From contig DAOUAT010000364.1 of the NCBI GenBank assembly GCA_034433275.1, forward strand, positions 1 to 38,604: DNA of 38,604 nt, written 5' to 3'. This stretch comes from Anaerolineae bacterium (lineage in GTDB: Bacteria > Chloroflexota > Anaerolineae > CG2-30-64-16). Positions 4,231 to 26,939 of this stretch are shown here, one piece after another. Within the stretch, counting starts at the first letter, position 1; the number at the start of each line of letters is the position of its first letter. The notes under the pieces are model-generated. The model was not told where the DNA came from and did no database searches. It worked only from the letters and a program-made list of their open reading frames with translations. Made by a program: the position numbers and the translations under genes.

Positions 4231-4344
4231 GCCGGCCAACGGTACTGGCGTATGGTGTGCGAAGCTGGGGGCCGTCGTTCAGCCGACCGCCAGCTTCCCT
4301 TCTCTTTATCTGCCTTATCCCCGCCTGAGGATACTATAACGCCG

Positions 4345-4806
4345 ATGCCGCCCTCTCAACGCGAGGCAACTTTTGCCAGCAAGATGACCGTCCTGCCGGA
4401 TATCCTGGCGTTTGTTGAAGAGGCGTGCGCGACAGCCGGCGTCGCCCCGACACTGCTCTTTGACCTGCAACTGGCGACTGAGGAAGCGTGTAGCAACGTC
4501 ATCGAGCATGCCTATCGCGGCAAGCGCGGGGTGTTCCGCCTCACGTTTACGGTCGAGAACCGCGACGTGATCATCACGCTGCACGATCAGGGGCGGCCTT
4601 TTGATCCTCAAGCCGTTACCAAACCCGACCCGACCCGACCACTAAACGAGCGGCCCATCGGCGGCCTGGGGTTGTACCTCATCTATCAGTTGATGGACGA
4701 TGTCCGCTTCAGCTTTGACGCCTCGGGCAACACCCTGGTGTTGGTGAAGCGCAACGCGATCGTGGATCACGCAGGCGCCTGCTGCGAGAAAACTGCCGAT
4801 GCATGA
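4345..4806 (+). CDS. Anti-sigma regulatory factor, Ser/Thr protein kinase (RsbW/SpoIIAB-like, HATPase_c_2)
   Basis: The ATEEACSNVIEHAY N-box-like motif, GGLGLYLIYQLMDDV and the ~150 aa size fit this family. The ORF is open from 4252, but ATG 4345 (MPPSQ...) follows GAGGA and gives the expected length. Confidence 0.7.
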   Translation: MPPSQREATFASKMTVLPDILAFVEEACATAGVAPTLLFDLQLATEEACSNVIEHAYRGKRGVFRLTFTVENRDVIITLHDQGRPFDPQAVTKPDPTRPLNERPIGGLGLYLIYQLMDDVRFSFDASGNTLVLVKRNAIVDHAGACCEKTADA

Positions 4807-7726: not shown

Positions 7727-7880
7727 TCATACCCCGCACACAGGGCTGCACCCAACCCTTTTCCGCTCCCTGGCTTCGATATGACCCACATCATTTGTCC
7801 GCCTGGCAACTCGTGATAAGTTGTATGTGCACTCACAATCCAGGCCGTATGCACCTTATATTTTAGCGTGGGAGCGCACA

Positions 7881-8258
7881 ATGGCTAAAATTCTTGTAGT
7901 AGATGATGATCCCGATTTCGTGGAGATGACCCGTCTTGTGCTGGAGCGGGCTGGCCACCAGGTGTTAGCAGCCAACAGCGGCGACGAAGGCTATACCCGC
8001 GCGCGCGCAGAGCGGCCAGATCTGATGATCCTGGATGTGATCATGGATAGCGTGCTGGATGGCGTTTCGACCAGCCAGCGCGTGCATGATGATCCAGAGC
8101 TGCAGGGCTTACCTGTGATTATGGTGACATCCATCGCCAATACAGACTACGCCGAGTTGTTCCCGACCGACGAATACATCCACATTGATGCCTTCTTGAG
8201 CAAACCCGTCACGCCAGCCTCCTTGCTGCGCCAGGTAGATCGCCTGTTGGCCCGGTAA
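7881..8258 (+). CDS. Stand-alone response-regulator receiver (REC) protein
   Basis: MAKILVVDDDPDF...PDLMILDVIM...PVIMVTSI...DAFLSKP. The acidic pocket, phospho-Asp (LDVIM), T/S and KP Lys are all present and there is no output domain. GGGAG lies 6 nt upstream of ATG 7881. The ORF is open from 7821. Confidence 0.8.
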   Translation: MAKILVVDDDPDFVEMTRLVLERAGHQVLAANSGDEGYTRARAERPDLMILDVIMDSVLDGVSTSQRVHDDPELQGLPVIMVTSIANTDYAELFPTDEYIHIDAFLSKPVTPASLLRQVDRLLAR

Positions 8259-8279
8259 GGTGACAGATTCGAGATTGCG

Positions 8280-10265
8280 ATGTGGGAGACGGTAAGACGA
8301 CGAATACGAGACGTCTTCGGCGCACCGTTTCAAGGGGTGCTGGTGATCTCGTTCTCGCTGGTGGCGGCCACCACGATCCTCATCGGCTCCGGCGTCATCT
8401 CGCGTACGATCCGTGATTATCTGGCCGAGGCCATGGCCGAGCGGATAAACCGGGACATGCAGCTGGCCGAGGCGCTGTACAACATCCGGCTGCAGGAGAT
8501 CGCCGGCGCCGCGCACCGACTGGCGCTGGATCCGTTGGTGCTGTCGGGGCTGGCCGAGTTGACCAGCGACCGGGAGCACGCCCTGGCGGTGATTGACAAG
8601 CAGATCGCCAACAAAGTCGCGGTGCAGGCGTTGGCGGGCAATCATCTGATTGCGGTGCTCGATGGCGAGGGCAACCTGTTGGCCGGGCGTTTGATCTCGG
8701 CCACGGGCGAGCAGTCTACGCTGGCCGGGTCGGCGGTCAGCGTCCACTGGGCCGATCTGCCCATCGTCAAGGCTGCGGTAGCGCAGCAATCCATCCTGGC
8801 GGCCACCGAGGTGATGCCGGCCGAATTGCTGGCGAAAGTAGGCCTGGCGGAACAGGCGCGTATCACCGTGTTGGATACACCCCGGGCCGCCGAAACGCTT
8901 TTCGATCCGCGCGAGGGCCAGGCCGGCTTGACCCTGATGGGGGTGGCGCCCATCGTACAGGGGGATGATGGCATCGCCGGCATCGTCATGGCGTTTCACC
9001 TCTTTAACAACGATTTCACGCTGGTGGACCGCATCCGGGATGTGGCCGGCGTTGATACGGTTACCATTTTCTTCGGAGACCTGCGCGTTTCCACCAATGT
9101 GCGCACACTAGACGGTCAACGCGCTATTGGAACCCGCATCTCCGAAGAGGTGAGCCAGACCGTGTTGGGAGGCGGGGTTCCATACGTCGGAACGGCTTTT
9201 GTCGTCAGCGAGAATTACATTACCCGGTATGATCCGGTGCGCAATCATGCGGGTGAGGTCGTCGGCATCCTATACGTAGGCGCACGCCAGGCCGCGTTTA
9301 CGCGCCTGGTCAACACCTTCAACGAGCAGGTAGCCCTGATCGCGCTGGGTACGATCCTGGCGACGTTTTTGCTGGCGATCCCTGTCTCGCGCGCGGTGAC
9401 CCGCCCGTTGCAAGAGCTGCGCGATCTGGCCGAAGCTAACCGGCGCGTCGCACAGGGCGACATGTCAGTGCGGGTGCCGGTGCGAGCCGGCGGTGATGTT
9501 GGTGAGCTCGCCAAGTCATTCAACACAATGTTGGATGAACTGCAGGCTACCCAAGATCAACTGGTGCATTCGGAAAAGCTGGCCTCCCTGGGACAACTGG
9601 CCGCCGGTGTGGCGCACGCGTTGAACAACCCGCTGGCCACTGTATTGCTGTTTTCCGATATCCTGCTGCGTGAGTGTGGACCTGACGATCCCAAGCGCAC
9701 GGATCTGGAGATGATCGTCAAGGAGACCCGACGGTGCAAAGGGATCGTGGCGGCGCTGCTTGATTTTGCGCGCCAGAACCAGGTTGAAGCCCAACCTACG
9801 GACCTGAACGCCGTGATCCGGCAAGTGTTGCAGGTTGAGCAGAAGCGTCTGGGCGATGTTCCGATCACCATCGTGGCTGAGTTGAGCCCGCAGCTGCCCG
9901 AGATCCAAGCTGATCCGGGCCAGATGCACGAAGTGGTCGCCAATCTGGTCAGTAACGCCCTCGATGCCATGCCGATGGGCGGCAAGCTGACCATCCAGAC
10001 TTACCCGGGCCCCAACACTATGGTTACGCTGGAAGTGGCCGATACGGGTATGGGCATCACGGCAGAGGATCAAGCGAGGCTCTTCGTGCCGTTTTTTACA
10101 ACAAAACCGGTGGGCAAGGGCACCGGGCTGGGCCTGGCTATCGTCTACGGCATCATCAAGATGCACCGGGGACAGATCACAGTGCAAAGCCAGGTGGGTA
10201 AGGGGGCCACCTTCACGGTGTTGTTGCCCATTCGTCTGTCGCCCGCCACGCAACGTCTGCCCTAA
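8280..10265 (+). CDS. Membrane sensor histidine kinase: TM, double-Cache-type extracytoplasmic domain, TM, HAMP, HisKA, HATPase_c
   Basis: There is an N-terminal TM. The Cache-like signature is GDLRVSTNVRTLDGQRAIGTRIS...GTAFVVSENYITRYDPVRNHAGEVVGILYVG. A second TM (VALIALGTILATFLLAIPV) is followed by HAMP, the H-box GVAHALNNPL, the N box NLVSNALDA, and G boxes DTGMGI and GTGLGLAIV. Confidence 0.85.
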   Translation: MWETVRRRIRDVFGAPFQGVLVISFSLVAATTILIGSGVISRTIRDYLAEAMAERINRDMQLAEALYNIRLQEIAGAAHRLALDPLVLSGLAELTSDREHALAVIDKQIANKVAVQALAGNHLIAVLDGEGNLLAGRLISATGEQSTLAGSAVSVHWADLPIVKAAVAQQSILAATEVMPAELLAKVGLAEQARITVLDTPRAAETLFDPREGQAGLTLMGVAPIVQGDDGIAGIVMAFHLFNNDFTLVDRIRDVAGVDTVTIFFGDLRVSTNVRTLDGQRAIGTRISEEVSQTVLGGGVPYVGTAFVVSENYITRYDPVRNHAGEVVGILYVGARQAAFTRLVNTFNEQVALIALGTILATFLLAIPVSRAVTRPLQELRDLAEANRRVAQGDMSVRVPVRAGGDVGELAKSFNTMLDELQATQDQLVHSEKLASLGQLAAGVAHALNNPLATVLLFSDILLRECGPDDPKRTDLEMIVKETRRCKGIVAALLDFARQNQVEAQPTDLNAVIRQVLQVEQKRLGDVPITIVAELSPQLPEIQADPGQMHEVVANLVSNALDAMPMGGKLTIQTYPGPNTMVTLEVADTGMGITAEDQARLFVPFFTTKPVGKGTGLGLAIVYGIIKMHRGQITVQSQVGKGATFTVLLPIRLSPATQRLP

Positions 10266-10291
10266 ACGAGGCAAGATCAGTAGACGAACTC

Positions 10292-12250
10292 ATGAAGCTG
10301 CAAACTAAATTCCTGTTGGGTGTTATTGCGATTTTTGTCATCCTGGCCGCGGCCATGGCTGCGCTTACGGCAAACTTCATTAACACCAACACGATCCGCG
10401 AAACCGAGAACCGTGTCCGCATCTATATGCGCGCCGCATGGGAAATCCATGACAGCAAGATCGCACGCACCCGCTCCGCGGTCGAAACCCTGGCGCGCGA
10501 TTCGGCCTTGACCGAATTCCTGCTCACACAAGGAGATAGTCCGGCGGCCGACGAAGTGCGCACCCTGCTGGAGACGGTGCGACGTGATCAGGGAATGGAT
10601 ATCCTGAACGTGTTGGCGCCGGATGGGCGTGTGCTGTTGCGGACCCGCCCGCCTTACAACAAGGGTGACAGCTTGGCGCAGGATCCATTGATCAAACAGG
10701 CGCTCACGTTGCGTCAGAGCAGCGTCGGCAACATTATTTTAGAGCAAGAGCGGCTGGATATCGAAGGCAGCGAGTTGATCGAGCGCTGTCTGGCGGTGGG
10801 CAATGAGCCGCGTGGGATGTTCGGCGGCGCGGCGGCCCCAGTCTTCAGTAATGGTGAGCTGATTGGTCTGATCGAGATGGGTTCACTGCTCAACGGCGCG
10901 ACTGAAAAGGTGGACGCGATCCGCGATGCGGTGTTTGCCAGCGAGATCTATAAGGGCAAACCGGTGGGCACAGCCACCGTCTTCATGGGTGACTTGCGGA
11001 TCTCCACAAATGTGTTGGACGCCCAGGGGCGCCGGGCTGTTGGCACCCGGGTCTCGCAAGAGGTGGCTGATCGCGTACTGAAAGAAGGGCTTTTCTGGAC
11101 GGGCCGTGCCTTCGTTGTGGATACCTGGTATCTGGCCCAATATGACCCCATTCGCAACCCTGACGGCAGAGTCATCGGTATGCTGTATGTGGGCGAATTG
11201 GAGCAGAAGTACCTGGACCTGCGCACGCGCACGATCGTGTTTGACCTGATCGTGATACTGGCAGGTATGCTGCTGGCCTTTATCGGCGCGCTGTGGCTGG
11301 TCAGGAGCATCGTGAAGCCCCTTCACACCCTGGTGGATGCGACGCAGCGGTTGGCGGCCGGCGATCTGGCGTATCGTGTGGACATCAAGCGTTCCGATGA
11401 ATTAGGCGATCTGGGCGCCTGCTTCAACGCGATGGCCGGCCGGCTGGAAGAACAGCGCCAAGAACTGGAGAAGCGCCAAAGCAACCTGGAGGCGCTCAGC
11501 GAGCAATTACAAACCACCAACCGCAACTACATCGAAATGCTCGGCTTCGTCACGCATGAGCTGAAGAACCCGCTCACTTCGGCCATCATGGGGCTTTACA
11601 CGGTGAAAGACGGGTATTTGGGCGCGTTGAATGCCGGGCAAAAGAAAAGCTTGGAAACGGTGGCCAAGAGTCTGGACTACTTCCAGGACATGGTCCGCAA
11701 CTACCTGGATCTATCCCGCCTGGAACAAGGCCAGCTCGTGGCCAAGAAGCGGCCGCTCAAACTGCAAGAGGCGGTCATCGAGCCATCGCTGGAAGCGCTG
11801 GAGCGGCAGATCCAGGATCGCCGAATCGTGGTGGACAACCGTGTCCCCGACCAGCTCGTCGTCAACGCCGATCCCACGTTGATGCGGGTGATTTACGATG
11901 ATCTAATCTCCAACGCCATCAAGTATGGCCGGGAGGGCGGCCAGATCGAGCTTGCTGCCGAAGCGACGAATGGCAAGATCACGCTGAGCGTGCGCAATGA
12001 TGGCGAGGGGATCCCACCGGAGAAGCAGACGCAGCTCTTCAAGCGGTTCAGCCGGCTCGACACGCCCAGCGCGACCGGCAAGAAGGGGACGGGCCTGGGT
12101 CTGTACATCTGCAAGGAGATTGTGGAGAAGCACGGCGGTAAGATTTGGGCCGACTCGAAGATGGGCGAGTGGGTGAAGTTCAGCTTTACCCTTCCGAACG
12201 AAATCCACGGCGCACAACAACTGTCTGCACAGGCGCAGCAGGGGATGTGA
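10292..12250 (+). CDS. Membrane sensor histidine kinase, paralog of the preceding gene (Cache, HAMP, HisKA, HATPase_c)
   Basis: Same architecture as the preceding gene. The Cache block is clearly homologous: GDLRISTNVLDAQGRRAVGTRVS...GRAFVVDTWYLAQYDPIRNPDGRVIGMLYVGE. H-box FVTHELKNPL, N box LISNAIKYG, G2 GTGLGLYICK. Confidence 0.85.
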   Translation: MKLQTKFLLGVIAIFVILAAAMAALTANFINTNTIRETENRVRIYMRAAWEIHDSKIARTRSAVETLARDSALTEFLLTQGDSPAADEVRTLLETVRRDQGMDILNVLAPDGRVLLRTRPPYNKGDSLAQDPLIKQALTLRQSSVGNIILEQERLDIEGSELIERCLAVGNEPRGMFGGAAAPVFSNGELIGLIEMGSLLNGATEKVDAIRDAVFASEIYKGKPVGTATVFMGDLRISTNVLDAQGRRAVGTRVSQEVADRVLKEGLFWTGRAFVVDTWYLAQYDPIRNPDGRVIGMLYVGELEQKYLDLRTRTIVFDLIVILAGMLLAFIGALWLVRSIVKPLHTLVDATQRLAAGDLAYRVDIKRSDELGDLGACFNAMAGRLEEQRQELEKRQSNLEALSEQLQTTNRNYIEMLGFVTHELKNPLTSAIMGLYTVKDGYLGALNAGQKKSLETVAKSLDYFQDMVRNYLDLSRLEQGQLVAKKRPLKLQEAVIEPSLEALERQIQDRRIVVDNRVPDQLVVNADPTLMRVIYDDLISNAIKYGREGGQIELAAEATNGKITLSVRNDGEGIPPEKQTQLFKRFSRLDTPSATGKKGTGLGLYICKEIVEKHGGKIWADSKMGEWVKFSFTLPNEIHGAQQLSAQAQQGM

Positions 12251-12288
12251 CAATGTGACATGGTAGGTTGGCTAAAGGAGGCCATCTG

Positions 12289-12705
12289 ATGACCCAGAAA
12301 CAACGCATCCTTGTCGTTGACGATGATGTCCAAGTTGTGGATACCCTGGAAACTTTGCTCCAGAGCGTCGGCTACGAAACACTCCACGCCTATCGCTCCG
12401 ATGAAGGGATGGAACTGGCCCGGACTGCAAAACCGGACCTGATGCTGCTCGATGTCATGTTTTCCGGCCCACCCACGCCAGATGGGTTCGAGACCTCGCG
12501 GCTGATCCATGAGGATCCTGACTTGAAGAATATCCCGGTGATCATGCTGTCTGGGATCAAGACTGTGCTGGGTGTCAAGTTCGATGTTAGCCCGGATGAC
12601 ACCTGGATGCCCGTGAAAGCTTTTCTGGAGAAGCCGGTGCGGCCCGCTAAATTACTGCGGGAGATCGAAAAGGTGCTGGGCCCGCGTGAGAAGGTGGCGG
12701 CATAG
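12289..12705 (+). CDS. Stand-alone REC protein (type A; paralog of 26475..26888)
   Basis: AAAGGAGG at 12274..12281, then ATG 12289. MTQKQRILVVDDD...PDLMLLDVMF...PVIMLSGI...VKAFLEKP. No output domain. I estimate ~65% identity by eye to the 26475 product. Confidence 0.85.
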   Translation: MTQKQRILVVDDDVQVVDTLETLLQSVGYETLHAYRSDEGMELARTAKPDLMLLDVMFSGPPTPDGFETSRLIHEDPDLKNIPVIMLSGIKTVLGVKFDVSPDDTWMPVKAFLEKPVRPAKLLREIEKVLGPREKVAA

Positions 12706-12708
12706 CGC

Positions 12709-14949
12709 ATGGTGACACATGCCAGGATTCTGGTCATTGATGATGAGCCGGGCATCCGTGAGGGCTGTAAGCGTGCCTTGACGCCGCAAGGCCATGTGGT
12801 GGATGTCGCGCAGGACGGCGCGGCGGGCTTGGAAAAGGCTAAGGCCACCCCTTATGACCTGGTGCTGCTCGATGTGATGATGCCTGGCATCGGCGGCATC
12901 GAGTTGTTGAGCCTCATCCGAGAGCATGATCCGTGTGCCGTCTGCATCATCGTCACCGGCTACGCGACGGTGCAACTGGCGGTCAACGCCATCAAGCGCG
13001 GGGCTTACGATTTTCTCACCAAGCCGTTCACGCTGGACGACCTGCTGCTGGCGGTCAATCACGGCCTCGAACATCGGCGCCTGCTGTTGGAAGAGCAGCG
13101 CTTGCAGGCGCTGGAAACCGAAACCCAGCAACTGGCCTATGAAAAGCGCAAATTGGAGGAGGTGGAAAAAGCCAAGGCCGCCTTCATCCGCCTGGTCACC
13201 CACGAGCTTCAGGCGCCAATAGCCGCGATTCAGGGCTATTTGCAGCTCATCCTGGAAGGCTACGTGGAGTTGGACAGACAGCGAGAGTTGCTCGTGCGCG
13301 CTTCCGCCCGCGCGGACGAGCAGATGACGTTGATCGCTGACCTGCTGACCTTGAGTAAGCTGCGCGAGATCAAACAACACGAACACGTGGCGGACGTTCA
13401 CCTCGATGAGTTGCTGCGGAAGACCGTCGAGCCGTTCCAAACGCAGGCGGCGGAAAAAAGCATCGTGCTAAAGACCGAGATCGCGGGAGACATCCCCCCG
13501 ATGCACGGCGTCGCCGCGGAGTTCAAGAGCCTCTGGACCAATCTGATCAGCAATGCGGTGAAGTATACGGCGCCGGGCGGCGCCGTGGTTGTCAGTTTAC
13601 GCGCCGATGGTCAGCACATCATCGGCCGCGTGAGCGACACCGGCATCGGCATCCCACCCGAGGCGCGCGATCGCCTGTTCACCGAGTTCTTCCGAGCTGA
13701 TAACGCCAAAGCGCTGGCCCTGCGCGGCACGGGGCTGGGGCTGGTCATTGTCAAGCAAGCCATCGAAAATGCGGGCGGGCAAATCTGGGTTGAATCGGAG
13801 CTCGGGCGCGGAACAACTTTTACCTTCACCATACCCATTGCACCCGAGGTCAAAACCCATCTGCAAGTTGCCAGTACAGAAGCCAAGAAAGGAGGCCGGA
13901 TGAGTTTACGGATCATTGACAAAGGCGCAATGCCAGCATTTGTTGCCGGCATGATGCGCGAGTATGAAGTAGTAGGGCCGCGGGCCAAAGAATACCTGCC
14001 CAACGGCAAGGCCCAGTTTGCGTTCGGTCCCATCACCGACGCCAGCGAGCTGCGGTTGGACTACAACACCACTATCCTACCGCCGAAGAAGCACCTCTTG
14101 CCGCAGGAAGAGGCGTTGTTCACCTTCCAGACGGCAGACCTGAAAGCAACACCGCAGCTTGACGCTCAGCCGCGGGTGCTGTTCGGCGTCCACACTTGCG
14201 ATATCCATGCCTTGGGGCTGTTGGATGCCGTCTTTGCCACGGGTCAGCGCGATGAGCACTATCTGAAACGCCGTGCCGCGACCCTGGTCGTCGGGATCGA
14301 GTGTCTGGCCCCGTGCGACGAGCACAGCTTCTGCAAGAGCATGGGCACGCTCACCGCGGACAAAGGGTTTGACCTGCACCTGACCGACCTGGGGCACAGC
14401 TACGCCGTCGAAATCGGCACCGCGGATGGTGAGGCGCTGCTGCGGGAGCACGGCGCGGCCCGCGTCGCCGAAGCGCGCGACGTCGAAATGCTCAACCAGG
14501 CGCTGTCCGAAAAGTGGCCTCGCTTCCCCTATCGGCTCGACCTCGATGGCAGCGAACTGCCCAGCCTGATGGCCCTCAGCTATAAGGATGCGCTGTGGAA
14601 CGAATTGGGCGAGCGCTGCCTGGCATGTGGGTCGTGCAACCTGGTGTGCCCCACCTGCTACTGCTTCAATGTGACAGACCGGGTGGCCCTGGATGGCCAG
14701 ACCGGCGAGCGGGTGCGGATCTGGGACAGCTGCCAGTTGGATGAGTTCGCCCGTGTCGCCACCGGCGAGAACTTCCGCCACAAACGCGCCGAACGCCAAC
14801 GCCATCGCTTCTTCCGCAAAGGCAAGTACATCTTCGACATGCACGGCGAGTTGGGGTGCGTGGGGTGTGGCCGTTGCGCCCGCGCTTGCCTGGTGGATAT
14901 CACCCCGGTCGGCGTCTGGAACGCACTGCACCAGGCGCACGCCAGTTAG
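12709..14949 (+). CDS. Single 746-codon ORF. REC, HisKA and HATPase_c (hybrid histidine kinase, aa 1-~375) read without a stop into a HydB/AsrA-like 4Fe-4S beta subunit of a group 3b [NiFe] hydrogenase (aa 398-746)
   Basis: REC: RILVIDDEPG...DLVLLDVMMPG...ITGYA...FLTKP. H-box LVTHELQAPI, N box LISNAVKYT, G boxes DTGIGI and GTGLGLVIV. From M398: MSLRIIDKGAMPAFV...VGP...ILPPKK.L.P.E. Cys clusters CLACGSCNLVCPTCYCF and CVGCGRCARACLV are typical of sulfhydrogenase beta / AsrA-like proteins. I translated the junction by hand and found no stop between the modules. Confidence 0.8.
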   Translation: MVTHARILVIDDEPGIREGCKRALTPQGHVVDVAQDGAAGLEKAKATPYDLVLLDVMMPGIGGIELLSLIREHDPCAVCIIVTGYATVQLAVNAIKRGAYDFLTKPFTLDDLLLAVNHGLEHRRLLLEEQRLQALETETQQLAYEKRKLEEVEKAKAAFIRLVTHELQAPIAAIQGYLQLILEGYVELDRQRELLVRASARADEQMTLIADLLTLSKLREIKQHEHVADVHLDELLRKTVEPFQTQAAEKSIVLKTEIAGDIPPMHGVAAEFKSLWTNLISNAVKYTAPGGAVVVSLRADGQHIIGRVSDTGIGIPPEARDRLFTEFFRADNAKALALRGTGLGLVIVKQAIENAGGQIWVESELGRGTTFTFTIPIAPEVKTHLQVASTEAKKGGRMSLRIIDKGAMPAFVAGMMREYEVVGPRAKEYLPNGKAQFAFGPITDASELRLDYNTTILPPKKHLLPQEEALFTFQTADLKATPQLDAQPRVLFGVHTCDIHALGLLDAVFATGQRDEHYLKRRAATLVVGIECLAPCDEHSFCKSMGTLTADKGFDLHLTDLGHSYAVEIGTADGEALLREHGAARVAEARDVEMLNQALSEKWPRFPYRLDLDGSELPSLMALSYKDALWNELGERCLACGSCNLVCPTCYCFNVTDRVALDGQTGERVRIWDSCQLDEFARVATGENFRHKRAERQRHRFFRKGKYIFDMHGELGCVGCGRCARACLVDITPVGVWNALHQAHAS
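13889..13902 (+). promoter_or_regulatory. hydB: Internal Shine-Dalgarno (AAGGAGG) plus ATG, marking an independent start for the hydrogenase beta subunit (13900..14949) inside the long ORF
   Basis: AAGGAGG at 13889..13895, 4 nt spacer, ATG at 13900. It is in frame with 12709. A 349-aa product from 13900 matches the usual HydB/AsrA-like size. Confidence 0.6.
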
Positions 14950-14958
14950 GAGGCTGCT

Positions 14959-15795
14959 ATGGCAATCCCAACCGTCGGTTCGATCTACATCCCCAGCCCG
15001 GCGCGCGTCGCAAAAGTCGAGCCGTTGACCGCGCTGGAAAAATTATTCACCATTGAGCTGCCGTGGGGGCAAAGCCTGGGCCATGAGCCGGGCCAGTTCG
15101 TGGAGGTGAGCCTGCTGGGCATCGGCGAGGCGCCCATCTCCATCAGTTCCTCCCCCAGCCGCAGCAATGGCGCCTTCGAGCTGTGCGTGCGCAAAGTGGG
15201 CGACGTGACCGCGGCTATGCACAAACTGGAGGCCGGCGCCACCATCGGTGTGCGCGGCCCCTTCGGCCACGGCTTTCAGATTGACAAGATGCGCGGCAAA
15301 GACATCCTGTTCGCGCCCGGCGGCCTGGGCCTGGCCCCGGCGCGCAGCCTGATCAACCAGGTGCTGGACGAGCGCGGCTCCTTCGGCCGCGTCATCATCC
15401 TTTACGGCGCCCGCAATCCCTCGGAGCTGCTGTTCAAGGATGAGCTCGAGGTCTGGAGCGCACGCTCCGATATCGAGTTTCATGTGACCGTGGATCGCCC
15501 AGACCCGACCTGGACCGGTAATGTGGGGGTGATCACCACCCTGTTCAAGAAGGTACACGTCAACCCGCGCAACACCGTGGCTGTCACCGTCGGCCCGCCG
15601 ATCATGTATCGCTTCGTGCTGATGGAGTTGCTCGGCAAGGGCATCCCCGAGACCCAGATTTGGATGTCATTGGAGCGGCGCATGAAGTGCGGCGTGGGCA
15701 AGTGCGGCCATTGTCAGATCAACAATCTGTACTGCTGCCAGCAGGGCCCGGCCTTCACCTATGCCCAGATCAAGGGCATCGAGGAGGCGATTTGA
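14959..15795 (+). CDS. hydG: Group 3b [NiFe] hydrogenase gamma subunit (FAD/NAD(P)-binding, PyrK/AsrB-like, C-terminal 2Fe-2S)
   Basis: Ferredoxin-reductase-type fold motifs are present (GQFVEVS, LFAPGGLGLAPARSL, ILYGAR). The C-terminal CGVGKCGHCQI...CC motif is also present. AGGAGG lies upstream. Position is between the beta and delta subunits, as in hydBGDA operons. Confidence 0.8.
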   Translation: MAIPTVGSIYIPSPARVAKVEPLTALEKLFTIELPWGQSLGHEPGQFVEVSLLGIGEAPISISSSPSRSNGAFELCVRKVGDVTAAMHKLEAGATIGVRGPFGHGFQIDKMRGKDILFAPGGLGLAPARSLINQVLDERGSFGRVIILYGARNPSELLFKDELEVWSARSDIEFHVTVDRPDPTWTGNVGVITTLFKKVHVNPRNTVAVTVGPPIMYRFVLMELLGKGIPETQIWMSLERRMKCGVGKCGHCQINNLYCCQQGPAFTYAQIKGIEEAI

Positions 15796-16544
15796 TGAAA
15801 CCCAAAGTAGCGTTTTTCGATTTCACCAGTTGTGAAGGCTGCCAGCTCACCGTGGTGGACAGCCTGCAGACCCACCCGGAGCTCCTGGACGCCGTCGAGA
15901 TCGTGCAGTTTCGCGAGGCCATGACCGAAAAAGGTGAGGATTACGCGGTCGCGTTCGTGGAGGGGTCCATCAGCCGCGCCAGCGATGAGCCGCGCTTGAA
16001 GCAGATCCGGGAGCAAGCCGCGGTGCTGGTGGCGCTGGGCGCGTGCGCGCACCTGGGCGGCGTCAACAGCATCCGCAACACACAACCGCTGGACGATGTG
16101 CGGCGTTACGTGTACGGCGATAAGGCGGAGTGGTATGAAACCTACCCTGCCCGCCCCATTAGCGCGGTAGTGAAAGTGGACGCCTTCATTCCCGGCTGCC
16201 CCATTGACCGCAACGAGTTCCTGGAAGTGGTCAAGGCGGTGCTGCTGGGCAAGAAACCGCCCATCCCGGATTACCCGCTGTGCGTGGAGTGTAAGCTTAA
16301 AGAAAACGTCTGCCTGTTCCACAAGGGCGGCTTCTGCCTGGGGCCCGTCACCCGGGCCGGCTGCGACGCCATCTGCCCCACTTACGGCGACGGGTGCGAA
16401 GCCTGCCGCGGCCTGATCCCCGATCCCAACCGCAATGCGATGAGCAATGTCCTGGTCGAAAACGGTCTGACAGTTGAAGCGATGTTAGCCCGCTGGACGA
16501 TGTTTGGGACGTACCAGCAGATGGAAATGGCGGCGAAAAAGTAG
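15795..16544 (+). CDS. hydD: Group 3b [NiFe] hydrogenase small (delta) subunit, NuoB/20-kDa-like
   Basis: ATG 15795 overlaps the upstream TGA (ATGA) and GAGGAGG is at 15781. MKPKVAFFDFTSCEGCQL...GACA..GG...PGCP is the small-subunit proximal-cluster pattern. Additional Cys (CVECK..C, CDAICP..GDGCEAC) would serve the distal clusters. The ORF track entry starts spuriously at 15660. Confidence 0.8.
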   Translation: MKPKVAFFDFTSCEGCQLTVVDSLQTHPELLDAVEIVQFREAMTEKGEDYAVAFVEGSISRASDEPRLKQIREQAAVLVALGACAHLGGVNSIRNTQPLDDVRRYVYGDKAEWYETYPARPISAVVKVDAFIPGCPIDRNEFLEVVKAVLLGKKPPIPDYPLCVECKLKENVCLFHKGGFCLGPVTRAGCDAICPTYGDGCEACRGLIPDPNRNAMSNVLVENGLTVEAMLARWTMFGTYQQMEMAAKK

Positions 16545-16553
16545 GAGTGTCTT

Positions 16554-17843
16554 ATGGCAAATGTAAGTATTGAAGTCCATCACGTCACCCGCGTCGAGGG
16601 TCACGGCAACATCGTCGTCAACGCGAAGAACGGCGTGCTAGAGGAGTGCCGGCTAGAGATCGTCGAGACCCCGCGCTTCTTCGAAGCGATGCTGCGCGGC
16701 CGGCCCTACACCCAATCCAGCCACATCACCAGCCGCATCTGCGGCATCTGCGCGGTGGGCCATGCCACGGCCAGCCTGCGCGCCACCGAGAATGCGCTGG
16801 GCATCACACCGTCGGAGCAGACGGTGCTGCTGCGCAAGCTCAACTTCCACGGCGAGATGCTGGATAGCCACGTGCTGCACGTCTACATGCTGGTGGCCCC
16901 CGATATGCTCGGCGTCGGCTCCGTCATTCCGCTGGTGAAGATCGTGCCGGACGTGGTGTTGCGAGCCTTGCGCATGAAGAAACTGGCCGGTGACATCTGT
17001 GCGGTGATTGCCGGCCGGCACACGCACCCGATCGCGATGGCGGTCGGTGGCTTTACCCACTTCCCCACGATCGCCGAGCTGAAGGCGCTGCGCGCACGCC
17101 TGGTGGAGGCCCGCGCGGACGTGGACGAGACGGTTAAGCTGGCCAAGACGCTGCCCTGGCCGCAATTCACCCGCGAGACAGAGTACGTCGCGTTGCGCAA
17201 AGAGGATGAGTACGCGTTCATTGATGGCACGGTCACCACGACCGACGGCGGCAAGTACGCCATCAAGGACTACCGCCAGGTGACCAATGAACGGCTGGTC
17301 CAGCACTCGTCGGCCAAGCACTGCGCGCACAAGCGCGAGTCCTACATGGTCGGCGCGCTGGCCCGCTTCAACGTCAACTACGACAAGCTTCACCCGCGCG
17401 CCAAGGCGGCCGCCGAAGAGTTGGGTCTCAAGCCGATCTGCGCCAATTCATTCCTGAACACCGCGGCGCAGGTGGTTGAGATCGTCCACTGCGTCGAGGA
17501 CGCCATCGGCCTGATTGACGAGCTGACCCAGCGCGGCGTCCGGGCCGAGCCGCTGCCGGCGTTCCCCGGCAAGGGCGGCGACGGCGCGGGCTCCTGCGAG
17601 GTGCCGCGCGGCATCCTGTTCCACAACTATCAGATCGGGGATGATGGCCTGGTGGCGGGCGCGAACTGCATCATTCCCACCGGCCAGAACCTGGCGAACA
17701 TCGAGGCGGACATGCGCAAACTGGTGCCGGAGATCCTGGATCGGCCCCAAGACGAGATTCGCCAGATGATGGAGATGCTGGTGCGGGCGTATGACCCGTG
17801 CATCTCGTGCTCGACGCATTTTCTGGAAGTGAAGTTTGTTTGA
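16554..17843 (+). CDS. hydA: [NiFe] hydrogenase large (alpha) subunit, group 3b type
   Basis: N-terminal Ni-binding motif RICGICAVGH and C-terminal DPCISCSTH, followed by a short extension (FLEVKFV) for protease cleavage. 429 aa. Confidence 0.9.
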   Translation: MANVSIEVHHVTRVEGHGNIVVNAKNGVLEECRLEIVETPRFFEAMLRGRPYTQSSHITSRICGICAVGHATASLRATENALGITPSEQTVLLRKLNFHGEMLDSHVLHVYMLVAPDMLGVGSVIPLVKIVPDVVLRALRMKKLAGDICAVIAGRHTHPIAMAVGGFTHFPTIAELKALRARLVEARADVDETVKLAKTLPWPQFTRETEYVALRKEDEYAFIDGTVTTTDGGKYAIKDYRQVTNERLVQHSSAKHCAHKRESYMVGALARFNVNYDKLHPRAKAAAEELGLKPICANSFLNTAAQVVEIVHCVEDAIGLIDELTQRGVRAEPLPAFPGKGGDGAGSCEVPRGILFHNYQIGDDGLVAGANCIIPTGQNLANIEADMRKLVPEILDRPQDEIRQMMEMLVRAYDPCISCSTHFLEVKFV

Positions 17844-17924
17844 CGACGGACGACAGATGAAGGATGAAGGACGAAGGACGGACGAAACCGTTGGTCATTC
17901 GTCATTCGTCATTCGTCCCGTCCT
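17843..17924. repeat. Imperfect palindromic simple-repeat element: GAYGAAG/GACGRAC-type heptamers on the left arm and three TCATTCG heptamers on the right arm
   Basis: acgacggacgacagatgaaggatgaaggacgaaggacggacgaa-accgttgg-tcattcgtcattcgtcattcgtcccgtcc. Left gacgaa pairs with right ttcgtc, and ggacggacgaa pairs with ttcgtcccgtcc with one bulge. It sits exactly between the hydA stop (17841..17843) and the conserved protease core. Confidence 0.7.
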
Positions 17925-18816
17925 GGTTCTAGGCCTCGGCAACCCATTGCAAGGTGACGATGGCGTCGGTTGCCAGGCCATCGAGGTGTTGCGCCAACTC
18001 GCGCTGCCGGATATGGTCGAAGTCGTAGATGGCGGGACGCCAGGCATCGGCCTCATTCACCTGTTGGAAGGTCGCAGCCGCGCTATCCTGGTGGATGCGG
18101 CCGAGATGGGGCGGGCGCCGGGTGCGGTGGTCCGCTTTCGCCCGGATGAAGTGACCTTGACGGGCGCGACCGAGCGTTTTTCGCTGCACCGCAGCGCGGT
18201 CAGCGATGCCTTGGCGCTGGCCGCCGCGCTGAACCTGCCGCTGCCGGAAATCGTGTTCTTCGGCGTGCAGCCGGCCAGGGTAGAGTGGGACACCGCGTTG
18301 AGCCCAGCCGTGGCAGATGCGCTGCCAGGGCTGGTGCAGGTCATTCTGAGTGAAATCGCAGACTCAGCACGGGAGGTAAATATGCTCCAGACCACAGACT
18401 CGGCTCAGACCTTGGGCCTGATTTTGATCGTTGATGATGACCCGGACATGGCAGAAGCATTGCGGATGCCATTGGAAGCGCACGGCTATACCGTGGCCCA
18501 TGCCGGCAGCGGTCGCGTTGGTTTGAATATGGTGAAAGAACTGACGCCCGACCTGATCATCCTGGATGTGATGATGGAGTCCGCTACCGAGGGGTTCCAG
18601 GTCTCGCTGGCGCTGCGCAGTCCCGATTCGGACTCCGCGTATGCCGCCTACAGCCATATCCCCATCCTGATGTTGACATCCATCCATTCGACCACGCCGC
18701 TGCGGTTTGGTCCGGATCAGGACTATCTACCGGTGGATGCGTTCATTGATAAGCCGATTGACCCTGATGAGCTGCTGGCGAAGGTGAATGAACTGATACA
18801 CAAACCTGTTGCCTGA
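17857..18816 (+). CDS. Hydrogenase maturation endopeptidase (HycI/HoxW-like) reading without a stop into a C-terminal REC domain (type B)
   Basis: Protease signature VLVLGLGNPLQGDDGVGCQAIEVL...VVDGGT.G..L...AILVDA. From aa ~183 a full REC follows: LILIVDDDPDMAEAL...PDLIILDVMM...ILMLTSI...VDAFIDKP. The ORF is open from 17836. The first ATG is 17857, inside the repeat element. I found no canonical start next to the conserved core. Confidence 0.75.
   Translation: MKDEGRRTDETVGHSSFVIRPVLVLGLGNPLQGDDGVGCQAIEVLRQLALPDMVEVVDGGTPGIGLIHLLEGRSRAILVDAAEMGRAPGAVVRFRPDEVTLTGATERFSLHRSAVSDALALAAALNLPLPEIVFFGVQPARVEWDTALSPAVADALPGLVQVILSEIADSAREVNMLQTTDSAQTLGLILIVDDDPDMAEALRMPLEAHGYTVAHAGSGRVGLNMVKELTPDLIILDVMMESATEGFQVSLALRSPDSDSAYAAYSHIPILMLTSIHSTTPLRFGPDQDYLPVDAFIDKPIDPDELLAKVNELIHKPVA
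18371..18384 (+). promoter_or_regulatory. Internal SD (GGGAGG) plus ATG 18382, a possible independent start for the REC domain (18382..18816)
   Basis: GGGAGG at 18371..18376, 5 nt spacer, ATG at 18382, in frame with the protease ORF. The TAA at 18377..18379 is out of frame. Confidence 0.5.
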
Positions 18817-18855
18817 TGACTCAGTGCTCCCACTGCATCAAGATGCTCAAGTACA

Positions 18856-18921
18856 GCATCCTGAGTGGAGGGCGGTAGCCCGGGGTCGTCCTTCGACTTC
18901 GTTGCCCTCCGCTCAGGAGCT
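18856..18921. repeat. Hairpin-type short dispersed repeat (copy 1)
   Basis: cctgagtggagggc (18860..18873) is the near-perfect inverted complement of gccctccgctcagg (18904..18917). The left arm gcatcctgagtggagggcggtagcccggggtcg recurs at 19281..19313 with a few mismatches. tccttcgacttc occurs at 18889..18900 and again at 18949..18960. Confidence 0.6.
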
Positions 18922-19152
18922 CCGGAGCGATCTTCAAGCCAAATCGCATCCTTCGACTTCAGCCGGCGCACTGATGTCGGCTTCCGCCAGGATGCCGGGC
19001 CTTGTCTAAATGGTCAAGGCAGCGACCGCAACCCAGATTTCTTGTTGTATGTTTTCCCGCGATATGACGCGTATCATTGCATCATGCTGAAGCTATCCTA
19101 GACTTTGTAAAGATGGCGTTTGCCCATTTCTGCCAGAAGCAGCGCAGCTGCA

Positions 19153-19273
19153 CATGCCGTGCGCGGCGCCACGGCCCCTGAAAAAGCCAAATCAGGTAAA
19201 TCAGGCCGATCTGCGTCCGCTCTTTCCGGGTTAGTTTTTCATGCCGCGCGCGGCGCCACGGCCTATGAAAACG
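19153..19273. repeat. Two copies of a 34-bp direct repeat (19153..19186 and 19240..19273, 30/34 identical)
   Basis: catgccgTgcgcggcgccacggccCCtgaaaaAg versus catgccgCgcgcggcgccacggccTAtgaaaaCg. A small tandem aaatcagg x2 lies between them. Confidence 0.7.
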
Positions 19274-19280
19274 TAGCGGA

Positions 19281-19433
19281 GCATCTTGAGCGGAGGGCCG
19301 CAGCCCGTAGTCGAAGGATACGGAGCGGTCTTTTGGGCAGGGCCGCATCCCTTCGGCTTCGCTCAGGGCAGGCTCTTCGACTGGACGCTGTTCGTTAAGC
19401 ACGTTGACTTGCAGACCCGCTCAGGATGCTTGC
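19281..19433. repeat. Hairpin-type short dispersed repeat (copy 2, longer)
   Basis: gcatcttgagcggagggccgcagcccgtagtcg (19281..19313) matches the left arm of copy 1. Its inverted partner ccgctcaggatgc lies at ~19419..19431. The interior contains an inverted copy of the tccttcgac motif (gtcgaaggata) and ggctcttcgac. Confidence 0.55.
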
Positions 19434-19542
19434 TTATTTTCAGGGCAGCACTGTAATAGTGCCAGAGCTGACCGACCGCGGCCAACCAGGCCCCAGAGCG
19501 TATTGAGCCCGGGCCATTCTAAGTTACGCAAAAGGATCGCGC

Positions 19543-20016
19543 ATGACCGAACACACGAATACGCTTGATCTGGCGCCACTCGACCGGATCCTGGGGCAAT
19601 ATGGCAACCAGAAGGACGCTGTGATCCCGATCCTGCAGAACGTCCAGGAAGCTTACGGCTACCTGCCCAGGGAAATTCTGACCCAGATATCCAAACGCAC
19701 CGGCATCCCTGAGGCCCGGCTGATGGGGGTGGCGACCTTCTACGCCCAGTTCCGGCTGAAGCCGCGCGGCAAGCACCTGATTCGCATCTGTGATGGGACC
19801 GCCTGCCACGTGCGTGGGGCGCCTGGCATTGTCAGCGCTATCGCAGCCCAATACGACGTGCTCCCCGGAGCTTCGTCATCCGACTACAAATACACACTCG
19901 AAGTCGTGTATTGCGTGGGAGCGTGTGGGCTGGCCCCGGTCATCATAGTTGACGATCAAGTGCATGGCAATCTCTCCCCAGATGCTGCTATCGAAGCGTT
20001 GTGTCATATCGAGTGA
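19543..20016 (+). CDS. NuoE/HoxE/HydC-like thioredoxin-fold [2Fe-2S] subunit
   Basis: 157 aa. AVIPILQNVQEAYGYLP...ATFYAQF..KP.GKH.I.ICDGTACHVRGA...VYCVGACGLAPVIIVDD is the NuoE 24-kDa-subunit signature with its 4 Cys. Confidence 0.85.
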   Translation: MTEHTNTLDLAPLDRILGQYGNQKDAVIPILQNVQEAYGYLPREILTQISKRTGIPEARLMGVATFYAQFRLKPRGKHLIRICDGTACHVRGAPGIVSAIAAQYDVLPGASSSDYKYTLEVVYCVGACGLAPVIIVDDQVHGNLSPDAAIEALCHIE

Positions 20017-26937: not shown

Positions 26938-26939
26938 AT

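What the first reader, a model, noticed from the sequence alone, without database searches (positions are those of the whole stretch)
12709..14949. A REC-histidine kinase reads straight into the hydrogenase beta subunit with no stop codon
Seen in sequence:
- The hybrid kinase ends its ATPase domain at ...GRGTTFTFTIP.
- The next 22 codons (IAPEVKTHLQVASTEAKKGGR) contain no stop.
- The frame then continues into MSLRIIDKG..., the normal N-terminus of a HydB/AsrA-like FeS subunit.
- A strong AAGGAGG lies 4 nt before that ATG.

Two readings are possible. One is that a 746-aa sensor-kinase::hydrogenase-subunit fusion is made, perhaps together with a free 349-aa HydB from the internal start. The other is that the kinase stop codon was lost recently or by sequencing error.

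I do not recall a kinase covalently tethered to a [NiFe] hydrogenase electron-transfer subunit having been described.
Basis: seen in the sequence. Interest (0 to 1): 0.7.

Follow-up and report, generated by a model that had tools for sequence, protein, structure and literature searches.

The report
Kinase fused to hydrogenase beta subunit
A two-component signalling kinase gene really does run, with no stop codon, into the gene for the iron-sulfur (beta) subunit of an NAD(P)-linked [NiFe] hydrogenase; the fusion is conserved across a clade of uncultured Anaerolineae, so it is not an error, and it suggests that a phosphorylation switch is attached directly to the enzyme.

Summary
ORF 12709-14949 (746 aa) reads REC-HisKA-HATPase, then a 21-residue linker, then a HydB-like beta subunit. 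AAGGAGG sits 4 nt before the internal ATG at 13900.

It is not a sequencing error or a recent stop loss. The same architecture occurs in 28 protein clusters (60-100% identity) from independent NCBI, ENA, JGI and Logan assemblies, all in the same operon context. The kinase and HydB halves are both under strong purifying selection (dN/dS about 0.1). The linker is hypervariable, has ten different lengths, and is always in frame.

Two products are likely. GGAGG and the ATG are invariant in 10 of 10 loci, although GGA is a rare Gly codon here (5%). Both signals survive in two relatives that have lost the kinase. Other relatives lack any internal start, so there HydB can only be made as a fusion.

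The fusion is part of a wider, apparently undescribed pattern. Other lineages carry membrane-kinase::HydB, REC::HydB and REC::HydB::HydG fusions. A single-domain REC gene follows hycI in most related operons and is fused to HycI in this window.

The closest known analogue is the non-covalent sensory hydrogenase-HoxJ kinase complex. The mechanism proposed here is inferred and untested. I rate this a new variant of a known kind.

The parts
12709..14949 (+). Fusion ORF REC-HisKA-HATPase_c-linker-HydB (746 aa)
   Evidence: The architecture is conserved in 28 clusters.
12727..13056 (+). N-terminal receiver (REC) domain, aa 7-116. The phospho-acceptor D55 and D11/D12, T87 and K105 are conserved.
   Evidence: Pfam. 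Invariant and near-invariant columns. dN/dS 0.06-0.11.
13174..13842 (+). Histidine-kinase core: HisKA (aa 156-219, H165 invariant) and HATPase_c (aa 271-378, N and G boxes invariant)
   Evidence: HK853-like PDB matches. dN/dS 0.08-0.12.
13837..13899 (+). 21-codon linker, formerly an intergenic-like spacer. It is hypervariable and predicted to be disordered.
   Evidence: ten lengths, 20-31 residues. AF2 pLDDT below 50 for residues 379-395. dN/dS 0.33-0.88.
13889..13895 (+). Internal Shine-Dalgarno AAGGAGG, encoded by the K-G-G codons
   Evidence: GGAGG is invariant in 10 of 10 loci. GGA is only 5% of Gly codons in the window's genes.
13900..14949 (+). HydB-like beta subunit (349 aa from the internal ATG). 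It carries a Fer4_22 domain, and all cluster cysteines are invariant.
   Evidence: PDB 9nez_B at E=2e-59. NCBIfam ShyB/HydB best hits.
14959..15795 (+). HydG-like gamma subunit (FAD/NAD(P)-binding, 2Fe-2S)
15795..16544 (+). HydD-like small subunit
16554..17843 (+). HydA [NiFe] large subunit, group 3b type
   Evidence: Best PDB matches are 5yxy_A and 9nez_D at about 1e-69.
17836..18816 (+). HycI-type maturation protease fused to a C-terminal REC domain. This is the ORF as listed; the true start is probably about 30 codons downstream.
   Evidence: Pfam. Fused in the window, L001, L081, L084, L167 and L168. The two are separate adjacent genes in 54 other loci.
12268..12705 (+). Single-domain REC (REC1). 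The likely start is ATG 12289, downstream of AAGGAGG at 12275.
   Evidence: Syntenic in L001, L003, L005, L081 and L084.
10292..12250 (+). sCache-HAMP histidine kinase 2
   Evidence: Synteny.
8280..10265 (+). sCache-HAMP histidine kinase 1
   Evidence: Synteny.
7821..8258 (+). Single-domain REC (REC0)
   Evidence: Synteny.

Best explanation
This is a genuine, selectively maintained gene fusion. It most likely arose when a kinase gene lost its stop codon while its 3' end already overlapped the ribosome-binding site of hydB.

Shown:
- The ORF encodes an intact REC-histidine kinase joined by a flexible linker of about 21 residues to an intact beta (FeS) subunit of a group-3b-type [NiFe] hydrogenase.
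- The fusion is conserved across an Anaerolineae clade.

Inferred with good support: in this genome the ORF gives two products.
- A minor full-length kinase::HydB, made from the weak upstream start.
- A major free HydB, made from the strong conserved internal SD and ATG.
- Only a fraction of hydrogenase complexes would therefore carry a tethered kinase.

Inferred, weaker: the tether places the kinase on the HydB/HydG electron-transfer module.
- The N-terminal REC of the fusion receives phosphoryl groups from the two upstream Cache-HAMP sensor kinases.
- The kinase core passes phosphoryl groups to the operon's output-less REC domains. These are REC0, REC1 and the REC fused to the HycI maturation protease.
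- These REC domains then act after translation on hydrogenase activity or maturation, rather than on transcription.
- HydB redox state may also feed into kinase activity.
For: Not an error:
- 28 clusters at 90% identity show REC+HisKA+HATPase+Fer4_22 on one polypeptide of 742-863 aa. They come from NCBI, ENA, JGI and Logan assemblies.
- DNA loci L001-L005, L081, L084, L085, L119, L167 and L168 show the same open junction.

Selection:
- dN/dS is 0.06-0.12 for REC, kinase and HydB, and 0.33-0.88 for the linker.
- Catalytic residues and FeS cysteines are invariant.
- Ten linker lengths occur, all in frame.

Internal start:
- GGAGG-N4/5-ATG is invariant in 10 of 10 loci, while the 33 nt upstream are unconserved.
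- GGA is only 5% of Gly codons here.
- The structural genes hydB, hydG, hydD and hydA have strong SDs, whereas the signalling genes have weak ones.
- L082/L083 deleted the ATPase domain. There the truncated ORF ends in ATGA, overlapping the hydB start. L006 lost the kinase altogether. Both keep the SD and ATG.

Fusion is functional as HydB:
- L002 has neither Met nor SD nor any alternative in-frame start at the junction; L085 also lacks both but keeps one weak in-frame GTG with no SD. L165 has no Met at the junction.
- The same no-Met junction is seen in the proteins P0025, P0027 and P0028.
- L165 lies in a complete hydG-hydD-hydA-hycI operon.

Origin:
- L069 has an unfused kinase ending '...GAA GGA GGA AAA TAA ATG', in frame with hydB. 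That is one stop codon away from the fused state.

Recurrence (Rosetta-stone logic):
- 6TM_PilS-HK::HydB (P0050, P0125, P0179), a second REC-HK::HydB group (P0121, P0156, L165, L114), REC::HydB (P0123, P0127, P0130, P0131, P0136) and REC::HydB::HydG (P0132, L153, L156, L157, L160) all exist.
- These groups fall in different parts of a HydB tree.
- A REC gene follows hycI in 54 loci and is fused to HycI in the window's subclade.
- A kinase gene lies within 4 kb downstream of hycI in 38 of 56 loci.

Linker: predicted disordered.
Against: - There is no protein, transcript or ribosome-profiling evidence. All sequences come from metagenome-assembled genomes and metagenomes.
- The linker evolves almost neutrally. 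The kinase has been lost twice within the clade without loss of the hydrogenase genes (L006, L082/L083), so the tether is dispensable.
- The subclade without an internal start (L002, L164, the P0027 locus) has no hydD or hydA next to hydB-hydG. There the partner enzyme may not be a hydrogenase.
- Phosphotransfer partners were not identified. No Hpt domain or DNA-binding regulator is present in the cluster.
- I could not examine whether the HydB N-terminus is exposed in the assembled complex (PDB 9nez).
- The set of fused proteins was found by searching with a fused query, so the in-frame statistic has an ascertainment bias. This is only partly offset by the fact that every kinase hit at 60% identity or more was fused, truncated or fragmentary, or from a frameshift-ridden contig.
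Confidence: 0.7

Rival explanations
1. Sequencing or assembly error, or a very recent stop-codon loss in this one genome. Kinase and HydB would really be separate genes.
For: A single GC-rich 21-codon stretch without stops is not improbable on its own; frames +1 and +2 of the linker are also nearly stop-free (read). Two related long-read contigs (L161, L164) do show frameshifts near or within the gene.
Against: - The same in-frame junction is present in 28 clusters from four data sources, down to 60% identity.
- It is present in the closest relatives L167 and L168 at dS 0.4-1.2.
- L161 and L164 carry frameshifts in several neighbouring genes too, which is typical of long-read indel errors.
Confidence: 0.02
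2. A tolerated but functionally neutral read-through. The stop was lost once in an ancestor, free HydB from the internal start does all the work, and the HydB tail on the low-abundance kinase is harmless baggage kept by drift.
For: - The linker is hypervariable, with dN/dS up to 0.88.
- The internal SD and ATG are strictly kept.
- Kinase loss is tolerated in L006 and L082/L083.
Against: - Under neutrality, stop codons or frame-breaking indels in the linker should have restored separate genes in some lineages. Instead ten different linker lengths are all in frame, at synonymous saturation.
- Lineages without an internal start depend on the fusion.
- N-terminal fusions of kinase or REC domains to HydB arose repeatedly in unrelated HydB lineages.
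Confidence: 0.17
3. The fusion is a precursor that is cleaved in the linker after translation, giving a separate kinase and HydB in a fixed 1:1 ratio.
For: The linker is disordered and exposed. A protease (HycI) is encoded in the operon.
Against: - The linker has no conserved cleavage motif. Apart from the SD-encoding K/Q-G-G-R it is unconserved.
- HycI-type proteases are specific for the C-terminus of the large subunit (established knowledge).
- A conserved internal SD would be unnecessary.
Confidence: 0.05
4. The tethered kinase uses the hydrogenase as its sensor. The redox state of the HydB FeS clusters, set by H2 and NAD(P)H, would control autophosphorylation, as in the H2-sensing hydrogenase-HoxJ complex. 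Localisation to a target would not be the point.
For: - The kinase has no sensor domain other than REC.
- A known precedent exists for a hydrogenase acting as kinase input (PMC6978683; HydDB group 2b).
- Kinase::HydB fusions with a different, membrane-bound kinase type exist.
Against: - It is not exclusive of the best explanation.
- REC::HydB fusions without any kinase fit 'HydB is the regulated target' better than 'HydB is the sensor'.
- Two Cache sensor kinases upstream already provide inputs.
Confidence: 0.25

Closest known systems
H2-sensing regulatory hydrogenase with its kinase: HoxBC-HoxJ of Cupriavidus necator and HupUV-HupT ([NiFe] group 2b, 'histidine kinase-linked')
   Same: A histidine kinase is physically coupled to a [NiFe] hydrogenase and is encoded in the hydrogenase gene cluster. 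The system links hydrogenase state to a two-component pathway (PMC6978683; PMC5037454).
   Different: - There the coupling is non-covalent and goes to a dedicated, low-activity sensor hydrogenase; that it runs through the kinase's PAS domain is from my own knowledge.
- There the output is the DNA-binding activator HoxA.
- Here the large subunit is group 3b and the kinase has REC but no PAS.
- Here the link is a peptide bond to the beta FeS subunit, which group 2b lacks.
- Here the cluster encodes only output-less REC domains.
[FeFe] group C putative sensory hydrogenases (C1 histidine-kinase-linked, C2 chemotactic, C3 phosphatase-linked)
   Same: Signalling modules are fused to, or co-encoded with, a hydrogenase (HydDB table).
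   Different: The metal-centre superfamily is different. In group C the association is with signalling proteins (histidine kinases, chemotaxis proteins, phosphatases) and the hydrogenase is itself the putative sensor (HydDB table). Here a catalytic NAD(P)-type enzyme carries a full kinase on an accessory subunit.
Group 3b NAD(P)-coupled [NiFe] hydrogenase (Pyrococcus furiosus SHI HydBGDA, PDB 9nez; Thermococcus kodakarensis, PDB 5yxy)
   Same: Same four subunits, in the order hydB-hydG-hydD-hydA. The beta subunit matches at E=2e-59 and the alpha subunit at about 1e-69.
   Different: The characterised enzymes have no signalling domains. NCBIfam equivalog cut-offs, which are built on archaeal proteins, are not reached.
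Single ORFs that yield two proteins through an in-frame internal start, such as E. coli CheA-L/CheA-S and ClpB (own knowledge)
   Same: A conserved internal SD and ATG lie inside a longer ORF. They would give a long and a short isoform sharing a C-terminus.
   Different: In those cases the short form is a truncated version of one protein. Here the short form is a complete, ancestrally independent enzyme subunit.

Membership tests
Group 3b [NiFe] hydrogenase (HydBGDA / sulfhydrogenase type) | Four-gene module: beta (FeS), gamma (FAD/NAD(P)), delta (small) and alpha (large), in this order | tested here: met
   Pfam and NCBIfam on 13900-17843. Every subunit has its best NCBIfam match to the Hyd or Shy equivalent, but below the archaeal equivalog cut-offs.
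Group 3b [NiFe] hydrogenase (HydBGDA / sulfhydrogenase type) | Large subunit groups with 3b rather than 3c, 3d, 3a or groups 1-2 | tested here: met
   PDB search. Group 3b chains (5yxy_A, 9nez_D, 9e15_B) score about 1e-69, against Mvh at 4e-52, Hox at 4e-40 and Frh at 1e-36. No formal HydDB or phylogenetic classification was run.
Group 3b [NiFe] hydrogenase (HydBGDA / sulfhydrogenase type) | Ni-binding CxxC pairs near the N- and C-termini of the large subunit | tested here: met
   Read from the translation...RICGICAVGH... and ...DPCISCSTH, followed by a 7-residue tail.
Group 3b [NiFe] hydrogenase (HydBGDA / sulfhydrogenase type) | NAD(P)(H)-coupled H2 turnover | not testable with these tools
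   Requires an enzyme assay.
HisKA-family histidine kinase | H-box His in the DHp domain, and N, G1 and G2 boxes in the ATPase domain | tested here: met
   H165, N278/N282, D310-x-G312-x-G314 and G340-x-G342-x-G344 are invariant in 28 sequences. Pfam HisKA and HATPase_c match. HK853-type PDB matches.
HisKA-family histidine kinase | Autophosphorylation and phosphotransfer to a cognate REC | not testable with these tools
   Requires a biochemical assay. The cognate REC has not been identified.
Receiver (REC) domain | Acidic pocket, phospho-acceptor Asp, and conserved Thr/Ser and Lys | tested here: met
   D11 and D12 are invariant. D55, T87 and K105 are conserved in at least 90% of sequences.
Group 2b sensory hydrogenase-kinase system (HoxBC-HoxJ-HoxA type) | Group 2b large subunit, PAS-containing kinase, and an NtrC-type DNA-binding regulator | tested here: not met
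   The large subunit is 3b-like. The kinase has REC and no PAS. No DNA-binding response regulator lies in the conserved cluster. The system may work like this family but is not a member.
Dual-product ORF with internal translation start | Conserved ribosome-binding site and start codon inside the ORF, kept at the nucleotide level | tested here: met
   GGAGG and ATG are invariant in 10 of 10 loci. The rare GGA codon is retained. Both signals are retained after kinase loss.
Dual-product ORF with internal translation start | Both protein species detected | not testable with these tools
   Needs proteomics, western blots or ribosome profiling.

The most novel reading that the evidence does not exclude
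Group 3b hydrogenases of Chloroflexota and several other uncultured lineages are direct post-translational outputs of two-component signalling.
- A kinase tethered to HydB, or encoded downstream of hycI, phosphorylates output-less REC domains.
- These REC domains bind or are fused to HydB (REC::HydB, REC::HydB::HydG) or to the HycI maturation protease.
- Phosphorylation would thereby switch electron transfer or large-subunit maturation on and off.
- The HydB clusters would possibly feed H2 and NAD(P)H redox state back into the kinase.

This would be the first phosphorelay whose effector is a hydrogenase itself rather than a promoter.
Probability: 0.3. Interest if true: 0.8.

Novelty: new variant of a known kind. 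Interest (0 to 1): 0.62.

Why it matters
Known hydrogenase regulation is largely transcriptional. The one well-known kinase-hydrogenase partnership (HoxBC-HoxJ) uses a dedicated sensor enzyme.

A catalytic NAD(P)-linked hydrogenase whose beta subunit carries a complete kinase points to fast, enzyme-level control of H2 metabolism in abundant but uncultured Anaerolineae. The recurrent REC::HydB and HycI::REC fusions point the same way.

The fusions also act as natural 'Rosetta stones': they nominate specific protein-protein contacts (kinase-HydB, REC-HydB, REC-HycI) that can be tested directly with recombinant proteins.

The locus is also a clean example of gene fusion by stop loss that keeps the downstream gene's ribosome-binding site inside the new ORF. 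The pre-fusion state (L069), the fused state, the obligate-fusion state and reverted states are all observable in nature.

Tried and rejected
- **Sequencing error or recent stop loss.** Rejected.
- **L161 (P0034) and L164 (P0031) as unfused counter-examples.** Rejected. Both are long-read contigs with frameshifts in several neighbouring genes.
- **Stop-codon avoidance in the linker as evidence of translation.** Not informative. At 62% GC the other two frames of the linker are also nearly stop-free (read), so I relied on in-frame length variation instead.
- **Promoter and terminator scan of 7500-19600.** Nothing above shuffled expectation, and no internal promoter before hydB.
- **An early tblastn with HydB coordinates off by one (13901).** It gave spuriously low HydB identities and a failed PDB query. 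Both were corrected to 13900. The synteny conclusions are unaffected.
- **AF2 model of the whole fusion.** It gives only moderate confidence (pLDDT 71.5, pTM 0.41) and low confidence in the FeS region. I used it only for linker disorder and ran no fold search.
- **Similarity of REC domains.** The REC of REC::HydB fusions is closest to the N-terminal REC of this fusion. That may reflect a shared REC subfamily rather than common descent, so I did not use it as evidence.
- **Literature.** Seven full-text searches found no description of kinase::HydB, REC::HydB or HycI::REC. Subscription-only papers are not covered.
Full report
**1. Observation**

The window contains one uninterrupted ORF at 12709..14949 (+) of 746 codons. 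Pfam finds Response_reg (aa 7-116), HisKA (156-219), HATPase_c (271-378) and Fer4_22 (636-731).

After ...GRGTTFTFTIP376 come 21 codons, IAPEVKTHLQVASTEAKKGGR (nt 13837-13899). Then follows M398-SLRIIDKG. AAGGAGG is at 13889-13895, the spacer is CCGG and the ATG is at 13900. The internal product would be 349 aa.

The C-terminal half is a clear homologue of Pyrococcus furiosus sulfhydrogenase I subunit beta (PDB 9nez_B, E=2e-59). It is followed by:
- hydG (14959-15795)
- hydD (15795-16544)
- hydA (16554-17843)
- a HycI-type protease (17836-18816)

The best solved relatives of the large subunit are group 3b enzymes (5yxy_A and 9nez_D at about 1e-69). Mvh scores 4e-52 and Hox 4e-40.

**2. The fusion is not an error and not recent**

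A search of 5.8 billion proteins returned 28 clusters at 90% identity, the window's own included. All carry the four domains on one polypeptide of 742-863 aa, at 100% down to 60% identity, from NCBI, ENA, JGI and Logan assemblies.

Scans of species-representative genomes and of metagenomes, plus exact look-ups, gave DNA for L001-L005, L081, L084, L085, L119, L167 and L168. All have the open in-frame junction.

The operon is syntenic in L001, L003, L005, L081, L084, L167 and L168:

REC - Cache-HAMP kinase - Cache-HAMP kinase - REC - [REC-kinase::HydB] - HydG - HydD - HydA - HycI(-REC) - NuoE ...

In L001, L005, L081 and L084 the conserved order continues as NuoE - NuoF - FdhA; L167 and L168 show further genes after NuoE.

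Against the nearest relatives (dS 0.4-1.3), dN/dS by segment is:
- REC: 0.06-0.11
- kinase core: 0.08-0.12
- HydB: 0.07-0.11
- linker: 0.33-0.88

All catalytic residues are invariant or nearly so. These include D11, D12, D55, T87 and K105 of REC, H165, the N and G boxes, and the HydB cysteines. Both halves are therefore functional genes.

**3. The linker**

The linker is hypervariable and rich in A, G, E, V, P and R. It occurs in ten lengths, 20-31 residues measured from P376 to L400, all in frame. AlphaFold2 predicts residues 379-395 as disordered, with pLDDT below 50, between confidently folded domains.

The set was collected with a fused query, so this statistic carries an ascertainment bias. 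However, every kinase hit at 60% identity or more was fused, truncated or fragmentary, or from a contig with frameshifts in several genes (P0029-P0034). The closest unfused homologues examined (P0038, 56% identity) sit elsewhere. They lie at the end of a HoxH (group 3d) operon, next to a REC, an ACT protein and a Cache kinase.

**4. The internal start is under selection of its own**

In the main subclade the junction reads [A/C]AA GGA GG[C/T] CGG ATG. GGAGG and ATG are invariant in 10 of 10 loci, while the preceding 33 nt are unconserved. GGA makes up only 5% of Gly codons in the window's genes, against 65% for GGC, so the conservation acts on the nucleotides.

The structural genes all have strong ribosome-binding sites:
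- hydB: AAGGAGG
- hydG: TAGGAGG
- hydD: GAGGAGG
- hydA: TAGGAG

The signalling genes, including the fusion's own start at 12709, have weak or no such sites.

Two natural experiments show that the internal start can work alone.
- In L082/L083 the ATPase domain (aa 223-362) is deleted with a frameshift. The truncated ORF ends in a TGA that overlaps the hydB ATG (ATGA), and the SD is kept.
- In L006 the kinase is gone. An AT-rich non-coding stretch precedes a remnant of the linker, followed by GGGAGGCAGAATG.

Both lineages sit inside the fused clade in a neighbour-joining tree of HydB domains. They are therefore secondary losses.

**5. In some relatives HydB can only be made as a fusion**

L002 and L085, and the proteins P0025, P0027 and P0028, have neither Met nor SD at the junction (...EPRAKLRII = GAA CCC CGC GCC AAA CTG CGA).

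A more distant REC-kinase::HydB (P0035/L165, 38% identity) also lacks an internal start. It lies in a complete hydG-hydD-hydA-hycI operon. There the fusion must serve as the beta subunit, unless a second copy exists elsewhere in that genome.

One caveat applies. The L002 / L164 / P0027 subclade has no hydD or hydA after hydG. Instead it has nuoE, a small ORF, a rubrerythrin-like gene and nuoF.

**6. How the fusion probably arose**

In L069, a distant lineage with a 6TM PilS-like kinase, the kinase ORF is in frame with hydB. It ends '...CCT GAA GGA GGA AAA TAA ATG', so its tail already encodes the hydB SD and a single stop separates the two genes. Loss of such a stop gives exactly the window's ...K-G-G-R-M... 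junction.

**7. A wider pattern**

Scoring the fusion against 1.84 billion cluster representatives, followed by Pfam, shows several architectures:

| Architecture | Examples |
|---|---|
| REC-kinase::HydB | P0005 (this clade), P0121, P0156 |
| 6TM_PilS-kinase::HydB | P0050, P0125, P0179 |
| REC::HydB | P0123, P0127, P0130, P0131, P0136 |
| REC::HydB::HydG | P0132, L153, L156, L157, L160 |

P0050/L166 lies in a hydG-hydD-hydA operon. The REC::HydB::HydG loci L153, L157 and L160 are followed by hydD and hydA.

These groups fall in different parts of the HydB tree. That suggests at least three independent fusions of two-component domains to the HydB N-terminus.

Independently, a single-domain REC gene follows hycI in 54 related loci. 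It is fused to HycI in the window, L001, L081 and L084, and also in L167 and L168. A kinase gene lies within 4 kb downstream in 38 of the 56 loci with enough sequence. One example is a GAF kinase in L008.

None of the REC proteins in the conserved cluster has a DNA-binding domain.

**8. Mechanism**

Shown: a conserved ORF encodes an intact REC-kinase tethered by a flexible linker to an intact HydB, with a conserved internal initiation signal.

Inferred:
- The weak upstream start gives little full-length fusion and the strong internal start gives abundant free HydB. A minority of hydrogenase complexes would then carry a kinase.
- By Rosetta-stone logic, the kinase, a REC domain and HydB interact, and so do REC and HycI. 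The pathway output would therefore be the enzyme or its maturation rather than transcription.
- The Cache kinases phosphorylate the fusion's REC domain.
- HydB redox state may modulate the kinase, as the sensor hydrogenase does for HoxJ.

None of these steps is tested.

**9. Comparison with known systems**

The nearest analogue is the group 2b 'histidine kinase-linked' sensory hydrogenase, HoxBC-HoxJ or HupUV-HupT (PMC5037454; PMC6978683). The [FeFe] group C1 class is a more distant analogue.

The present system is not a member of group 2b. Its large subunit is 3b-type, the kinase has no PAS domain, the link is covalent and goes to a subunit that group 2b lacks, and no DNA-binding regulator is present.

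Seven full-text searches found no description of kinase::HydB, REC::HydB or HycI::REC. Database names for these proteins are generic: '4Fe-4S dicluster domain-containing protein' and 'sulfhydrogenase subunit beta'.

**10. Verdict**

This is a real, conserved and apparently undescribed fusion, best called a new variant of the kinase-linked hydrogenase theme.
- Confidence that the fusion ORF is genuine and maintained: about 0.95.
- Confidence that free HydB is also made from the internal start: about 0.75.
- Confidence in the proposed signalling role: about 0.3-0.4.

Noticed in passing
window 17836-18816: A second stop-less fusion in the same operon: the HycI-type hydrogenase maturation protease carries a C-terminal REC domain. 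In 54 related loci the protease and the REC are separate adjacent genes. They are fused only in the window's closest subclade (L001, L081, L084, L167, L168).
   Followed up: yes
window 21976-24825 (TGA at 23110-23112): The formate dehydrogenase alpha subunit appears split into two ORFs in the same frame. They are separated by a single TGA in the context HCARL*HSPTV, which looks like the usual selenocysteine site. A simple fold of the 66 nt downstream was no more stable than shuffled sequence (z=0.27).
   Followed up: partly
window 24911-26029: A formate/nitrite transporter (FocA-like) carries a C-terminal DRTGG domain, directly after the NuoE-NuoF-FdhA genes. Together with the hydrogenase this looks like a formate/H2/NAD(P)H interconversion island.
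   Followed up: no
L002 547-8010; L164 10001-17000; P0027 locus: The subclade whose fusion has no internal start also lacks hydD and hydA after hydG. There hydB-hydG is followed by nuoE, a small ORF, a rubrerythrin-like gene, nuoF and (in L164) an Fdh/NuoG-like gene. In L164 the HydB C-terminus appears fused to HydG. HydBG may serve a different enzyme there.
   Followed up: partly
L153 7974-10328; L157 8778-11153; L160 2369-4780; proteins P0123, P0127, P0130, P0131, P0136, P0132: REC::HydB and REC::HydB::HydG fusions without a kinase occur in other lineages. In L153, L157 and L160 they are followed by hydD and hydA. L157 has two further REC-domain matches directly upstream.
   Followed up: partly
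L166 1351-3963 (P0050); P0125; P0179; L065 and L069 (unfused): A kinase with a six-helix PilS-like membrane domain is fused to HydB. This would anchor a normally cytosolic group 3b hydrogenase to the membrane. The same kinase type is unfused, 10-31 nt upstream of hydB, in L065, L067 and L069.
   Followed up: partly
L162 497-9239; L163: The closest unfused homologue examined of the REC-kinase (P0038, 56% identity) lies at the end of a HoxH (group 3d) hydrogenase operon, together with a REC, an ACT-domain protein and a Cache-HAMP kinase. The signalling module therefore seems to be hydrogenase-associated more generally.
   Followed up: partly
window 12268-12705: The listed TTG start of the single-domain REC gene is probably wrong. 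AAGGAGG at 12275 is followed by ATG at 12289 (MTQKQRILVVDDD...).
   Followed up: no
window 4252-7726: An RsbW-like anti-sigma kinase (HATPase_c_2) and a protein with four GAF domains and a SpoIIE phosphatase domain lie upstream of the two-component cluster. A GAF-rich gene at the same position is seen in L167 and L168 but not in the more distant syntenic loci.
   Followed up: no
window 26026-29797: A second signalling set (REC, REC, and a 372-aa histidine kinase without a recognised sensor domain) is followed by HdrC/HdrB-like genes (Fer4_17 and CCG domains). Further on come another NuoF-like gene (34463-36550) and a multi-FeS gene (36555-38354).
   Followed up: no
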